IMG/VR virus record: IMGVR_UViG_3300045988_163776
Coordinates: 128,001 to 155,695 of that record
DNA length: 27,695 nt
From: a virus
Direction: 5' to 3' (one strand)
A program made the translations under genes and the position numbers. This document shows, piece after piece, positions 24,415 to 26,342 of the stretch. The stretch's first letter is position 1, and every line of letters begins with the position of its first letter. The notes under the pieces were generated by a model. It had not been told where the DNA came from. It was given only the letters and a program-made list of their open reading frames with translations, and made no database searches.

Positions 24415-24522
24415 ATGAAATTATATATTTACAAGTGGGACAATGATACTTTTATAGGAAGCAATAAAGGCTATATGGTAAAATATGAAGAAAAGCAGAG
24501 GTTTATAGATGCTATCTCTTAA
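24415..24522 (+). CDS. small peptide (35 aa) immediately upstream of and overlapping the radical SAM gene; candidate substrate/precursor peptide
   Basis: Strong RBS AAGGAGAATAATTAAA then ATG. MKLYIYKWDNDTFIGSNKGYMVKYEEKQRFIDAIS. The TAA at 24520-24522 overlaps the start of the next gene. Confidence 0.4.
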   Translation: MKLYIYKWDNDTFIGSNKGYMVKYEEKQRFIDAIS

Positions 24523-25759
24523 AGAATATAAAGAAGAATACCATTGTCCAATAATCGCTTGCTTAAACATAACAAATCAATGTAATCTTAAATGTCGCTA
24601 TTGCTTTGTAAATCAGAATCCAGAACGCATGTCTTTTGAAACTGCTACAACAGCAGTAACTTATTTATATAAGAACCTAACTGCGCGACGGGAAAAAACT
24701 GGGAATCCGCACCTAAAAGGCACTATTAATTTTTTTGGTGGTGAGCCACTTTTGGAATGGTCTTTAATAAAACGATTAACAGAATGGATAGAAGAAAAGT
24801 ATGCTAATTGTTTCAATTTAGGCATTACAACTAATGGTACACTATTGAACAAACAAATTATAGATTTTTTATATGAACATAAAATAATACCTTTGTTATC
24901 AATGGATGGGGATAGAGAAACACAAGAATATAATAGACCTTGCAAACTTAGAGGTAGTAGTTTTGATTTGGTTAAAACGCATTTATCTTATCTGCTGGAA
25001 AAATTCCCTAATACAGTATTTCGCATGACTATATATGAGGATACTTGTGATAAATTATTTGATAATATTATATTTGCAGAACAACAAGGCTTTAAGTATT
25101 TCTATGCAACTCCAGATAGTAGACATAATTTTTCTAAAGAAAATTTAAAAAAATTAAAAATAGAATTAGAAAAATTTTATAGTTACTTCACTATTAGTCT
25201 AATAAATGGCATTAAACCAATAGAGAGTAGCTTTATAAGAGATATGTTCCTAGGAGTATTGCGTGAGCCTAGTCTTAAGGTTAATGAACTAGACCAATTA
25301 ATACCAAGAGATATAATGAGATGTGGCCTTGGTACTGTAAGCATTAGTATTAGTCCAGATGGTAGTATATATGGGTGCCAAGAACAAGTAACTAATAATA
25401 AAGAAAATAATCTTTTTTATTTAGGGGATATATATAAAGGAATCGCGGGCGACCACCATATCAAGCTTTTAAGTGAATACAGATCGCTTTCCGCAATCAC
25501 AAGTGAATCCGCAAGTTTATGCGAAGATTGTGGGTATCGTAAATTATGTTATCAAGTTCAATGTCCTTCAATGGCAAAACAAAGATTTGATAATTTTTTT
25601 ATATTGCCAGAGACAATGTGCTTCTGGAATCGAACTTTATATGATTTAACAAAACAAGTTTTATCAATATATAATGAAAATATAGAACGATATTTAACAG
25701 AAATAATTGAGGAGGAAGAGGAATATGAGTTATATTGTAGGAGGAACAACTTATCCTGA
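24509..25759 (+). CDS. radical SAM enzyme with C-terminal SPASM/twitch domain
   Basis: N-terminal CNLKCRYC (CxxxCxxC, the SAM-cluster motif). C-terminal Cys clusters MRCGLGTVSISISPDGSIYGCQEQ and CEDCGYRKLCYQVQCP are typical of SPASM-domain maturases. 416 aa. Confidence 0.75.
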   Translation: MLSLKEYKEEYHCPIIACLNITNQCNLKCRYCFVNQNPERMSFETATTAVTYLYKNLTARREKTGNPHLKGTINFFGGEPLLEWSLIKRLTEWIEEKYANCFNLGITTNGTLLNKQIIDFLYEHKIIPLLSMDGDRETQEYNRPCKLRGSSFDLVKTHLSYLLEKFPNTVFRMTIYEDTCDKLFDNIIFAEQQGFKYFYATPDSRHNFSKENLKKLKIELEKFYSYFTISLINGIKPIESSFIRDMFLGVLREPSLKVNELDQLIPRDIMRCGLGTVSISISPDGSIYGCQEQVTNNKENNLFYLGDIYKGIAGDHHIKLLSEYRSLSAITSESASLCEDCGYRKLCYQVQCPSMAKQRFDNFFILPETMCFWNRTLYDLTKQVLSIYNENIERYLTEIIEEEEEYELYCRRNNLS

Positions 25760-26342
25760 TCCAGAAATAGCTTGTTATATGACAGATTTAGAAGATTTAC
25801 AAAATATCTATGCAAATAAAATAAACAATTATTTTGCAACAGATAAAATAGCAAGCAAATATTATGATTGGGTAAATAATAAAGAACATATAGAACCAAC
25901 ATATGCTTATACATCAGAGGAAATTATTGATATATTATGCTTTAATGAAGATAACAATGGTATCGTGTCAGTATTGCCATTATTTGTATACCTTACCATA
26001 AAAACGAAAAATTGGTCTGTAAAAATAGAAAATATTACAGATGAAATTATTGCTTATACAGAAGCTAATGTAAATGGCTTTAATAATGATTTCCTTAATT
26101 TAATAAAAGAGCAAGTGTTAGAACAATATCCAGGTTTATGTAAGTTTGTTGAGACCGTAGGCGTAAAAGAAGATAATAATACTCAAGAGGGTATTTCTAT
26201 TAATGACAATTTTCTTGATAAATTTGCTTACTATTGGAAAAATGATTGTATGGTAAATATAGAGTTTCCAAGTAAATCTGCTAATGTTGATTTAACTTCT
26301 GGATTTACAGAAGAAGAAAAAAAACGAGCAGAACAAGTTTAG
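25725..26342 (+). CDS. hypothetical protein co-transcribed with the radical SAM gene
   Basis: RBS GAGGAGG then ATG 25725, overlapping the end of the rSAM gene. 205 aa, acidic. The track start at 25707 lacks an RBS. Confidence 0.55.
   Translation: MSYIVGGTTYPDPEIACYMTDLEDLQNIYANKINNYFATDKIASKYYDWVNNKEHIEPTYAYTSEEIIDILCFNEDNNGIVSVLPLFVYLTIKTKNWSVKIENITDEIIAYTEANVNGFNNDFLNLIKEQVLEQYPGLCKFVETVGVKEDNNTQEGISINDNFLDKFAYYWKNDCMVNIEFPSKSANVDLTSGFTEEEKKRAEQV

What the first reader, a model, noticed from the sequence alone, without database searches (positions are those of the whole stretch)
24415..26342. Phage-encoded radical SAM/SPASM enzyme cassette with an overlapping upstream 35-aa peptide gene
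A CxxxCxxC radical SAM protein with C-terminal SPASM/twitch Cys clusters is typical of peptide-modifying maturases. It is directly preceded by, and overlaps, a strongly ribosome-bound small ORF (MKLYIYKWDNDTFIGSNKGYMVKYEEKQRFIDAIS), rich in Tyr, Trp and Lys and lacking Cys. It is followed by a co-translated acidic protein of 205 aa. This arrangement resembles RiPP cassettes in which rSAM-SPASM enzymes install Lys-Trp or aromatic C-C/ether cross-links. The cassette sits among tail and lysis genes, downstream of a terminator. It could modify a virion component or produce a small modified peptide. It could alternatively be an anSME-like maturase for a phage enzyme.
Basis: partly seen in the sequence, partly recalled or inferred. 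Interest (0 to 1): 0.8.

Follow-up and report, generated by a model that had tools for sequence, protein, structure and literature searches.

The report
Phage radical-SAM enzyme, cysteine-motif lysin partner
The radical SAM/SPASM gene is real, but its conserved partner is a cysteine-motif cell-wall hydrolase two genes downstream, not the 35-aa ORF; this enzyme/Cys-rich-protein pairing recurs in many Clostridia phages, and I found no description of it.

Summary
The three ORFs exist as described.

The 416-aa protein is a genuine radical SAM enzyme with a full 7-Cys SPASM domain and no RRE. Its nearest families form thioethers (PapB, CteB/SCIFF), but it passes no curated cut-off.

The 35-aa ORF is not a conserved precursor:
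- It exists only in the window's own species-level lineage.
- It was created by a unique 100-nt insertion into the 5' UTR.
- It is absent from eight syntenic relatives, including one whose rSAM is 80% identical.
- It contains no Cys.

What is conserved is a downstream protein carrying Cys tracts. This holds across about 50 divergent phage and prophage loci and is the only conserved neighbour. The tracts have period 3-4, and the residue after Cys is Gln, Glu, Asn or Asp in 73% of cases.

In the window this partner is 26356..27525, a 389-aa protein with two in-frame TAGs. It has the motifs CxGCxSFCMxGxQ and HPxQCxxCN, fused to an NlpC/P60 endopeptidase domain.

Best reading: the rSAM cross-links these Cys motifs in a phage lytic or virion protein. 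This is inferred, not shown. The 205-aa (really 215-aa) protein is a clade-specific all-alpha accessory of unknown role.

The parts
24251..24282 (+). Intrinsic terminator that ends the upstream C1 peptidase-SLH gene. It consists of the stem-loop GGGCCGGTCGCAAGACTGGCCC followed by a T-run.
   Evidence: Found. The stem is conserved in L171 and L089.
24305..24333 (+). Promoter of the rSAM operon: TTGACT, 17-nt spacer, TG-n-TATGAT (extended -10).
   Evidence: Found. The TTTTTTGATAT(A/G)AT block is conserved in L002, L004, L005, L089 and L171.
24398..24497 (+). Lineage-specific 100-nt insertion in the 5' UTR. It supplies the SD, the ATG and the first ~27 codons of the 35-aa ORF.
   Evidence: Alignment with L171, whose rSAM is 80% identical, shows ...GTATTAGATAAAATAG followed directly by GAGGTTTATAGATG. 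The insert has no other copy in the window or in any fetched locus.
24415..24522 (+). 35-aa upstream ORF. It may be translated and coupled to the rSAM start. It is not a conserved precursor peptide.
24509..25759 (+). Radical SAM/SPASM enzyme of 416 aa. CxxxCxxC lies at residues 25-32 and the 7-Cys SPASM at C272..C371. It has no N-terminal RRE and no in-frame TAG.
   Evidence: Pfam Radical_SAM scores 56.5 bits. NCBIfam best hit is PapB at 159 bits against a cut-off of 340. A profile of the family matches CteB (5WGG) with E 9e-39, aligned from CteB residue 94. More than 1700 homologs exist. Alignment A2 shows the invariant residues.
25725..26372 (+). Clade-specific acidic all-alpha accessory protein. 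It is 205 aa if TAG 26340-26342 is a stop and 215 aa if TAG is read as Gln. It overlaps both neighbouring genes.
26356..27525 (+). 389-aa Cys-motif protein and the proposed substrate. An N-terminal Cys-tract module (residues 10-221) is fused to an NlpC/P60-type endopeptidase (residues ~224-389). In-frame TAGs lie at 26419-26421 and 26902-26904.
26383..26421 (+). N-terminal Cys motif C10-R-G-C13-M-S-F-C17-M-Q-G-K-Q22, where Q22 is encoded by TAG. It is nearly invariant in the clade. It corresponds to the terminal unit CxxCQ[ST]FCExGxQ of longer Cys tracts in other phages.
26986..27027 (+). Second Cys motif H211-P-H-Q-C215-C-I-C218-N-V-Y-E-G-G224. It corresponds to the start of the C-terminal C[ND]xxC tract of the short-type partner proteins.
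27151..27159 (+). D-C267-S, the predicted catalytic Cys of the NlpC/P60 domain. It pairs with the invariant H346.
   Evidence: R264, D266, C267, S268, G269 and H346 are invariant in A3.
16887..16974 (+). Context: an 88-nt suppressor tRNA with anticodon CUA. It explains the in-frame TAGs in the operon's neighbours and in the partner gene.
   Evidence: TAG positions align mostly with Gln.

Best explanation
The cassette is a late-region operon of a TAG-recoded phage, with this order: promoter, a lineage-specific uORF, the rSAM/SPASM maturase, a 215-aa accessory protein, and a 389-aa Cys-motif NlpC/P60 endopeptidase.

The rSAM enzyme's substrate is the Cys-motif protein, not the 35-aa peptide. By analogy with its nearest characterised relatives (PapB, CteB, NxxcB, QhpD), the proposed mechanism is as follows. 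The enzyme binds a substrate Cys at an auxiliary Fe-S cluster. It abstracts an H atom from a nearby residue using 5'-deoxyadenosyl radical. It then forms intramolecular thioether cross-links within CxGCxSFCMxGxQ and/or HPxQCxxCN. This would staple the N-terminal module of a cell-wall hydrolase that must work outside the cell in an anoxic, protease-rich gut, where disulfides are not available.

Shown here:
- The enzyme's family features.
- The operon structure.
- The non-conservation of the uORF.
- The conserved genetic coupling between the enzyme and a Cys-tract protein.
- The NlpC/P60 fold of the partner's C-terminal domain.

Inferred:
- That the partner is the substrate.
- That the chemistry is thioether formation.
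- The biological rationale.
For: 1. Coupling in phage loci. I grouped the rSAM genes into 50 clusters at 90% identity. Of the 32 clusters at least 31% identical to the window's, about 25 have an overlapping downstream ORF with 5 or more Cys in 40 aa. The background rate is 39 of 707 ORFs. Apparent exceptions such as L015 carry the tract internally.
2. Coupling in bacterial genomes. The same pairing occurs in about 24 of 28 related loci, apparently prophages of Clostridia. These include cultured Peptoniphilus, Ezakiella and Lawsonibacter strains.
3. Only conserved neighbour. The downstream Cys protein is the only conserved neighbour of the rSAM gene. Upstream genes vary.
4. Reciprocal test. Three further homologs of the window's lysin all sit behind an rSAM gene.
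5. Homology of the partner. Residues 10-221 of the window's protein are homologous to the short Cys-tract proteins (HHalign probability 98.1%, E 7.5e-14). Its two Cys motifs are nearly invariant, while the sequence between them is poorly conserved.
6. Regular tract. Across 58 distinct partners, Cys-Cys spacing is 4 (482 cases) or 3 (291 cases). The residue after Cys is Q 37%, E 25%, N 6%, D 5%. That pattern, [QEND]-x-x-C, is the NxxC-type arrangement that NxxcB cross-links (PMC9389541). It is also compatible with PapB, which accepts Asp or Glu acceptors at i+1 to i+7 (PMC12373016).
7. Enzyme relatives. The best matches are thioether-forming maturases: PapB at 159-195 bits across the phage family and CteB 5WGG at E 9e-39.
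8. No RRE. The enzyme lacks the N-terminal RRE of CteB and SCIFF maturases, which fits a substrate that is not a leader-core peptide.
9. Inteins. Several relatives carry an intein at the CxxxCxxC motif. Inteins are usually found in indispensable proteins.
Against: - There is no biochemical evidence. Adjacency does not prove an enzyme-substrate relationship.
- In the window's clade the tract is reduced to 3+2 Cys. The residue after Cys is Met or Arg rather than Gln or Glu, so the acceptor residue cannot be named.
- CxxC-type motifs can simply bind Zn or Fe-S.
- The AF2 model of the N-terminal module has low confidence (pLDDT below 50), so nothing structural supports a cross-linked fold.
- In this window a 215-aa gene separates the enzyme from the proposed substrate.
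- The enzyme passes no curated family cut-off, so its chemistry could differ (epimerisation, formylglycine, C-C or ether links).
Confidence: 0.55

Rival explanations
1. One reading: the 35-aa ORF is a RiPP precursor that the rSAM cross-links (Lys-Trp, aromatic C-C or ether). The 205-aa protein would be a co-factor or immunity protein.
For: The ORF has a strong SD, which is rare for short ORFs here: 5 observed against 0.6 expected. It overlaps the rSAM start. It stays open in 6 sequence variants found on dozens of contigs of this phage species.
Against: - It is absent from eight syntenic relatives with 55-80% rSAM identity.
- It was created by a unique 100-nt insertion. Its last 7-8 codons are only the other-frame reading of the conserved rSAM SD and start.
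- Its substitutions are non-conservative.
- It has no Cys, and the enzyme has no RRE.
- The enzyme family as a whole (more than 1700 members) exists without it.
Confidence: 0.04
2. The small ORF is a translated upstream ORF that only affects rSAM expression, through translational coupling or re-initiation after the 100-nt insertion moved the promoter away from the rSAM SD. Its peptide has no function. This is compatible with the best explanation.
For: The SD plus ATG and the 14-nt overlap ATGCTATCTCTTAA suit termination-reinitiation. The ORF is confined to one lineage. No Rfam element lies in the UTR.
Against: There are no expression data. The rSAM gene keeps its own SD (AGAGG, 7-nt spacing), so coupling is not required.
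Confidence: 0.5
3. The Cys tracts are metal-binding (Zn or Fe-S) or redox modules of phage proteins. The adjacent rSAM/SPASM enzyme acts on something else, such as a small molecule, another protein like the upstream C1 peptidase, or the 215-aa protein's conserved N-terminus MSYIVxGTxxPDP.
For: CxxC and CxxxC spacing is typical of metal sites. The window's motif has only 3+2 Cys. The 215-aa family has a conserved, apparently disordered N-terminal peptide. The C1 peptidase is a conserved upstream neighbour within the window's clade.
Against: - Tracts of up to 50 Cys with a strict [SGAT]-C-[QE] period of 4 are unlike known metal sites and resemble repeat RiPP cores.
- The C1 peptidase and the 215-aa protein are absent from most loci that keep the rSAM-Cys pair.
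- A terminator and a promoter separate the C1 gene from the operon.
- The nearest enzyme relatives act on Cys-containing peptides.
Confidence: 0.2
4. anSME-like chemistry: the enzyme oxidises a Cys or Ser of the hydrolase or of the C1 peptidase to formylglycine.
For: It is RRE-less and about 370-416 aa long, like anSME. anSME models and structures are hit: TIGR03942 at 66.6 bits and 4K36 at E 1e-13.
Against: The scores are far below those for PapB and CteB, and far below the anSME cut-off of 349. No sulfatase domain is present in the neighbours. I did not see a (C/S)xPxR motif in the partner's conserved Cys motifs in alignment A3. This was judged by eye, not by a formal scan.
Confidence: 0.05

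Closest known systems
PapB / freyrasin ranthipeptide synthase (NCBIfam NF047865)
   Same: It is the best-scoring curated family for this enzyme and for its phage relatives, at 159-195 bits. It is an rSAM with two auxiliary clusters. It joins Cys to a residue with a side-chain carbonyl in repeated short motifs, and the acceptor may lie at i+1 to i+7 (PMC12373016).
   Different: The score is far below the 340-bit cut-off. PapB recognises a leader peptide through an RRE (PMC12373016), and no RRE is detectable here. PapA is a short peptide with CSANDA repeats. Here the partner is a 170-1660-aa phage protein, and the residue after Cys is mostly Gln or Glu.
CteB, the SCIFF (thermocellin) thioether synthase, PDB 5WGG
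   Same: It is the closest solved structure by sequence profile (E 9e-39). The alignment runs through the SPASM domain, query positions 12-381.
   Different: The alignment begins at CteB residue 94, so the N-terminal RRE domain is missing here. The SCIFF model TIGR03974 scores 114 against a cut-off of 425. The substrate is not a ~45-aa six-Cys peptide.
NxxcB / NxxcA (streptococcal beta-thioether RiPP)
   Same: The repeated acceptor-x-x-Cys arrangement matches. NxxcB links Cys to the beta-carbon of an Asn three residues upstream and tolerates Gln and Asp (PMC9389541). The phage tracts are [QEND]-x-x-C repeats.
   Different: NxxcA is a short quorum-regulated peptide. The resemblance is in motif logic only.
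QhpD-QhpC (quinohemoprotein amine dehydrogenase maturation)
   Same: This is an rSAM/SPASM enzyme that installs Cys-to-Asp/Glu thioethers in a subunit of a functional enzyme rather than in a secreted RiPP (my own knowledge of the system). TIGR03906 is among the top hits at 107 bits.
   Different: The score is below the 453-bit cut-off. The host context and substrate are unrelated. QhpD has an N-terminal extension that is absent here.
Anaerobic sulfatase-maturating enzyme (anSME)
   Same: It is an RRE-less rSAM/SPASM enzyme of similar size that modifies a folded or unfolded enzyme substrate rather than a leader-core peptide.
   Different: The match is weak: 66.6 bits against a cut-off of 349, and 4K36 at E 1e-13. 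No sulfatase and no (C/S)xPxR motif were seen.
CXXX-repeat peptide system (TIGR04115 maturase family; predicted only)
   Same: It pairs an rSAM/SPASM maturase with a target made of 4-residue Cys repeats. TIGR04115 is hit at 78-122 bits.
   Different: The score is far below the 350-bit cut-off. The phage partners match no NCBIfam or Pfam model. They are large phage proteins.

Membership tests
Radical SAM superfamily (PF04055) | CxxxCxxC cluster motif and a Pfam score above the gathering threshold | tested here: met
   C25-x3-C29-x2-C32 is invariant in 22 homologs. PF04055 scores 56.5 bits against a threshold of 29.5.
SPASM subfamily | C-terminal 7-Cys pattern Cx9-15Gx4C ... Cx2Cx5Cx3C ... [quoted passage not shown] | tested here: met
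   The sequence shows C272-x12-G-x4-C290, C338-x2-C341-x5-C347-x4-C352 and C371, all invariant. The fourth spacing is 4 rather than 3. Pfam SPASM alone is sub-threshold at 15.2 against 21.5. The profile aligns through the SPASM domain of CteB.
PapB-family ranthipeptide maturase (NF047865) | Score at or above the curated cut-off of 340 bits | tested here: not met
   The window's enzyme scores 159 bits. Phage and prophage relatives score 172-195 bits.
PapB-family ranthipeptide maturase (NF047865) | Adjacent short precursor with a leader and Cys-X3-Asp type repeats, recognised through an RRE | tested here: not met
   No RRE or PqqD domain is found. The only short adjacent ORF has no Cys and is not conserved.
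SCIFF maturase (TIGR03974) | Curated cut-off of 425 bits, and an N-terminal RRE domain | tested here: not met
   The score is 114 bits. The alignment starts at profile position 99 and at CteB residue 94.
   The 35-aa ORF is absent in eight relatives and arises from a unique 100-nt insertion. DynA, YhhB and FxsB-type models score only 55-72 bits.
anSME (TIGR03942) | Curated cut-off of 349 bits, and a sulfatase partner with a (C/S)xPxR motif | tested here: not met
   The score is 66.6 bits. No sulfatase domain is present in the neighbours. The motif was checked only by eye in A3.
Housekeeping rSAMs (QueE, NrdG-type activases) | Best match to QueE or NrdG models | tested here: not met
   These are not among the 25 best of 73 NCBIfam hits. 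PHROG QueE-like scores 22.7 bits, against 97.6 for the phage rSAM family phrog_1802.
CXXX-repeat target maturase (TIGR04115) | Curated cut-off of 350 bits | tested here: not met
   The scores are 78 bits and 68-122 bits in relatives.
NlpC/P60 (CHAP-like) peptidoglycan endopeptidase, tested on the C-terminal domain of the partner protein | Papain-like fold with a conserved Cys/His pair | tested here: met
Thioether-cross-linked (sacti- or ranthi-type) product | A -2 Da shift per link, loss of free thiol, and an S-C bond mapped by MS/NMR | not testable with these tools
   This requires anaerobic co-expression and mass spectrometry.

The most novel reading that the evidence does not exclude
Phages of anaerobic Firmicutes encode their own RRE-less radical SAM/SPASM enzyme. 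It installs arrays of thioether staples, acting as non-reducible substitutes for disulfides, directly in large virion-surface and cell-wall-degrading proteins. These include Hoc-like and Ig-domain proteins, tail-associated proteins and NlpC/P60 lysins. That would be a radical-enzyme post-translational modification of phage structural or lytic proteins, and a protein-scale counterpart of ranthipeptides. The window's operon would be a reduced-motif member of this system.
Probability: 0.4. Interest if true: 0.8.

Novelty: new variant of a known kind. Interest (0 to 1): 0.62.

Why it matters
If the inference holds, rSAM/SPASM 'RiPP' chemistry is used by phages on full-size proteins, not only by bacteria on small peptides.

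- **New kind of virion or lysin maturation.** It would be relevant to particle and enzyme stability in the anoxic gut.
- **A gap in genome mining.** RiPP surveys that rely on an RRE or on a short precursor would miss this family (PMC10288494).
- **Enzyme engineering.** An enzyme that works without a leader peptide could be useful for stapling proteins.
- **Directly testable.** The same pair occurs in prophages of cultured strains: Peptoniphilus indolicus ATCC 29427, P. duerdenii ATCC BAA-1640, Ezakiella peruensis and Lawsonibacter faecis NSJ-52.
- **Annotation lesson.** Gene calls and small-ORF hypotheses in TAG-recoded phages are unreliable under the standard code. The partner gene is not annotated at all in the only GenBank relative, Phass-1.

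Tried and rejected
- **Family searches on the other proteins.** The 35-aa, 205-aa and 389-aa proteins gave no significant Pfam, NCBIfam or PHROG hit.
- **uORF as a gene remnant.** I asked whether the 35-aa ORF is a remnant of an upstream 205-like paralog, as seen in L089. Only the terminator and promoter align. blastp finds nothing, and a 14-nt SD-region match has E=1.3. Rejected as unsupported.
- **Riboswitch or other RNA element in the 5' UTR.** No Rfam hit came near a gathering score.
- **Alternative rSAM start.** An ATG at 24485 could serve as the start if the TAG at 24506 is read through. Rejected, because relatives start at the residues homologous to 24509, M(L/P)SL(K/R)EYKEE.
- **TGA or TAA recoding.** Neither lengthens the ORFs meaningfully. 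Only TAG does.
- **Second rSAM gene.** There is none in the window.
- **Literature.** Seven full-text searches covered phage rSAM/SPASM, Cys-rich structural proteins, CXXX repeats, phage-encoded RiPPs and prophage maturases. None found a description of this pairing. The Phass-1 paper does not mention radical SAM. Absence from this library does not prove it is unpublished.
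Full report
**1. What is in the sequence**

- A 35-aa ORF at 24415..24522. It has an AAGGAG Shine-Dalgarno 10 nt upstream and a TAA stop.
- A 416-aa ORF at 24509..25759, which overlaps the small ORF by 14 nt.
- An acidic ORF (pI 4.3) that starts at 25725 and overlaps the rSAM gene by 35 nt.

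Upstream lie an intrinsic terminator (24251..24272 plus a T-run) and an extended -10 promoter (TTGACT-17-TGnTATGAT, 24305..24333).

The 416-aa protein has CxxxCxxC at C25/C29/C32. Its C-terminal pattern is C272-x12-G-x4-C290, C338-x2-C341-x5-C347-x4-C352 and C371, which is a full SPASM signature. All ten Cys are invariant in 22 homologs of 38-63% identity.

**2. The genetic code changes the picture**

The window (31% GC, all genes on the + strand) has long stretches without ORFs under the standard code. These become long ORFs if TAG is read through. TGA or TAA read-through does not have this effect.

- A tRNA with anticodon CUA lies at 16887..16974, at the end of a 16-tRNA array.
- In alignments with relatives, TAG positions align most often with Gln (60 of 248 aligned residues; the next most common is Lys at 27). 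At conserved columns they align only with Gln.
- The best GenBank relative, phage Phass-1, is filed under 'Caudoviricetes code 15 clade' (PMC10607447).

Three consequences follow:
- The upstream 'fragments' are one C1 peptidase-SLH protein (23312..24241, 5 TAGs).
- The '205-aa' protein most likely reads through TAG 26340 to TGA 26370-26372, giving 215 aa. The TAG aligns with a Gln of the L002 homolog.
- The two downstream 'ORFs' (26422..26904 and 26980..27525) are one 389-aa gene starting at 26356. A 99%-identical full-length protein is in the protein collection.

The rSAM gene itself has 0 TAG among 13 Gln codons, against 29% TAG in the neighbouring late genes. The binomial probability is about 0.01.

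**3. What kind of enzyme it is**

- Pfam finds Radical_SAM (56.5 bits) and Fer4_12. SPASM is sub-threshold.
- The best NCBIfam hits are all peptide or protein maturases: PapB ranthipeptide maturase (159 bits), nif11, SCIFF, CcpM, QhpD and HxsB. None reaches its curated cut-off.
- QueE-like scores only 22.7 bits in PHROGs, against 97.6 for a phage rSAM family.
- A profile of the family matches CteB (5WGG, the SCIFF thioether synthase) best among solved structures, with E 9e-39. The alignment starts at CteB residue 94, so the N-terminal RRE is missing here. anSME follows at E 1e-13.
- The family is large: more than 1700 homologs at E<=1e-10, none of the 120 listed carrying a source name, many on 110-230-kb contigs.
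- Several members carry an intein. In L171 it sits at the third Cys of CxxxCxxC.

**4. The 35-aa ORF is not a conserved precursor**

- In syntenic relatives L002, L004, L005, L087, L089, L170 and L172 (55-65% rSAM identity), the space between the promoter and the rSAM start holds no such ORF.
- tblastn finds the peptide only in the window and in L007, whose rSAM is 97% identical.
- L171 is decisive, because its rSAM extein is 80% identical to the window's. The terminator, the promoter, the start of the UTR and the rSAM SD and start are all conserved. The window, however, has a unique 100-nt insertion (24398..24497) that provides the SD, the ATG and about 27 codons.
- The last 7-8 codons (RFIDAIS) are only the other-frame reading of the conserved rSAM SD and start.
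- Within the species-level population the ORF stays open in six variants, but these carry non-conservative changes: D9N, T12I, I14V, G15E, E26K, Q28P, plus G19E in L007.
- ORFs of this length are at chance frequency here (54 against 47 in shuffles). Only the SD is unusual (5 against 0.6).

The ORF may be translated as a uORF. It has no Cys and no homologs, and it cannot be the family's substrate.

**5. What is conserved**

I examined the gene downstream of the rSAM gene in 80 IMG/VR loci and 80 bacterial-genome loci.
- Nearly all relatives at or above ~30% identity have, overlapping or abutting the rSAM stop, a protein of 170-1660 aa with a dense Cys tract. Examples are L037 (MSSCSNCCDTCQNCVNCNDTCDTCQSFCELGKQ) and L065 (...CEGSCESTCESSCQSSCEKSCQSG).
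- Quantified: about 25 of 32 rSAM clusters at or above 31% identity have 5 or more Cys in 40 aa in that ORF, against 39 of 707 background ORFs. Apparent exceptions carry the tract internally, for example L015 at residues 140-236.
- All-against-all clustering of neighbours shows that only the downstream proteins are conserved. They fall into three BLAST components covering 27 of 30 loci. No upstream gene is conserved.
- Across 58 distinct partners (1066 tract Cys), Cys-Cys spacing is 4 (482 cases) or 3 (291 cases). The residue after Cys is Gln 37%, Glu 25%, Asn 6%, Asp 5%. The residue before Cys is Ser, Gly, Ala or Thr.
- Long-form partners have Hoc-like Ig, FN3 or tail-like C-termini in PHROGs, so they look like virion-surface proteins.
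- The partners match no Pfam or NCBIfam model.
- The Phass-1 partner ORF is not annotated in GenBank. There is a gap between the CDSs at locus positions 7152 and 7756.

**6. The window's member of that partner family**

- In the window's clade the operon order is rSAM, a 205-like gene, then a 380-580-aa protein. The 205-like gene is absent in L004.
- These proteins share a nearly invariant N-terminal C-x-G-C-x-S-F-C-M-x-G-x-Q and a central H-P-x-Q-C-x-x-C-N-x-x-x-G-G.
- The first motif is the same as the terminal unit of longer tracts elsewhere (CQSFCExGxQ in L008, L011 and L037).
- Profile-profile comparison shows that residues 10-221 of the window-type protein are homologous to the whole short-type Cys-tract protein: HHalign probability 98.1%, E 7.5e-14. 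A simpler HMM had already hit L037 and L018.
- Reciprocally, three further homologs of this protein all sit behind an rSAM gene.

**7. The 205/215-aa protein**

- It has only about 15 cluster representatives in 1.8 billion proteins. All homologs located in fetched loci lie in the window's clade. L089 has a second paralog upstream of the rSAM gene.
- It has a conserved but apparently disordered N-terminus (MSYIVxGTxxPDP) and an all-alpha body (pLDDT 77) with no convincing structural neighbour.
- Its role is open. It could be an adaptor, a chaperone, or unrelated to the modification.

**8. Mechanism proposed, and what is inferred**

Shown:
- The enzyme class.
- The operon with overlapping genes.
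- The conserved rSAM/Cys-tract coupling.
- The endopeptidase fold of the partner.

Inferred:
- The rSAM enzyme modifies the Cys motifs.
- The modification is most likely thioether formation, as in its nearest relatives.
- NxxcB links Cys to the beta-carbon of an Asn three residues upstream and tolerates Gln and Asp (PMC9389541). PapB links Cys to Asp or Glu at i+1 to i+7 (PMC12373016). The phage tract unit C-[QEND]-x-x-C fits both geometries.
- A plausible benefit is non-reducible stapling of proteins that function outside the cell in an anoxic gut.

In the window's clade the acceptor cannot be named, because the residues after Cys are Arg, Met and Met.

**9. Hosts and novelty**

- The pair occurs in apparent prophages of Clostridia. 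These include Oscillospiraceae MAGs, Lawsonibacter faecis NSJ-52, Ezakiella peruensis, Peptoniphilus indolicus ATCC 29427, P. duerdenii ATCC BAA-1640, Aedoeadaptatus nemausensis, Fervidicella metallireducens and Clostridium tepidiprofundi.
- Seven literature searches found no description of it. Large RiPP-rSAM surveys select for RRE association, which this enzyme lacks (PMC10288494).
- I classify it as a new variant of a known kind. The known kind is an rSAM/SPASM Cys-cross-linking maturase with its substrate. The variant is phage-borne, RRE-less, and acts on large proteins.

**10. Verdict**

The headline interpretation, that the small peptide is a RiPP precursor, is refuted. A more interesting, conserved and testable pairing takes its place.

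Noticed in passing
window 15039..27525 (late genes) and 16887..16974: Many late genes use TAG as a Gln codon: 29% of Gln codons in five late genes, and 10 of 15 in 15039..16001. The window's leftmost genes (1092..6667), 11309..12400 and 17694..18389 have none. The suppressor tRNA(CUA) is 88 nt long with an apparently long variable region, which is unusual for a tRNA-Gln. Phass-1 also has an 88-nt Sup-CTA tRNA.
   Followed up: partly
window 7380..16974: An array of 16 tRNA genes is interspersed with small ORFs. These include a NUMOD1 homing-endonuclease-like gene (9636..10130). Two ARAGORN calls have odd anticodon loops (11037..11109 and 13082..13156).
   Followed up: no
window 23312..24241: This is a phage-encoded papain-family (C1) peptidase fused to an S-layer-homology domain, with 5 in-frame TAGs. 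It is a conserved upstream neighbour of the rSAM operon in this clade and follows Peptidase_G2 and collagen-like fibre genes. It may be an S-layer-degrading or envelope-anchored enzyme, and it hints at a host with SLH-anchored surface proteins.
   Followed up: partly
window 15039..16001: A 320-aa ORF with 10 in-frame TAGs carries three repeats of W-(H/Y)-C-(K/Q)-C-D-C-G. Its C-terminal region looked nuclease-like to me by eye, but this was not tested. It sits inside the tRNA array and has no Pfam hit.
   Followed up: no
window 22308..22424 and 22813..23280: Two ORFs begin with the same N-terminus, MAQIKKLK...(I/T)(I/Y)(F/Y)PMT(D/Q)ASAV. The first runs into stops under either code and looks like a truncated duplicate of a fibre-like gene.
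   Followed up: no
L170 1164..2819, L171 697..2895, L172 483..2792; protein P0099: rSAM homologs in close relatives carry inteins (Hint, Intein_splicing, LAGLIDADG). In L171 the intein is inserted exactly at the third Cys of the CxxxCxxC motif (...CLKCRY|CVTGDTKIL...).
   Followed up: partly
L001 (Phass-1, OQ749652) locus 7153..7677: The 174-aa Cys-tract ORF directly after the Phass-1 rSAM gene is not annotated in GenBank. The rSAM gene itself is split into two CDSs at an in-frame TAG. A second rSAM-like ORF lies just upstream (locus 4947..5972).
   Followed up: partly
L002 10745..13248, L004 9387..13239, L005 9536..11032, L087, L171: Downstream of the operon, relatives encode DUF2828/DUF7788 proteins and proteins with Vault_3 / major-vault-protein shoulder domains. 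These are unusual for phages. In L170 the DUF2828 gene is interrupted by a GIY-YIG/NUMOD endonuclease gene.
   Followed up: no
L053, L058, L059/L061, L066-L086: More distant phage loci carry two or three tandem rSAM paralogs. Those at 26-29% identity mostly lack a Cys-tract neighbour. The rSAM-Cys pairing therefore defines a sub-clade, not every phage rSAM/SPASM gene.
   Followed up: no
window 24509..25759: The rSAM gene has no TAG among 13 Gln codons, although its neighbours use TAG for about 29% of Gln (binomial p about 0.01). In Phass-1 and L002 the cassette genes do contain TAG. This may reflect a need for early expression or a recent origin, but it is unexplained.
   Followed up: partly
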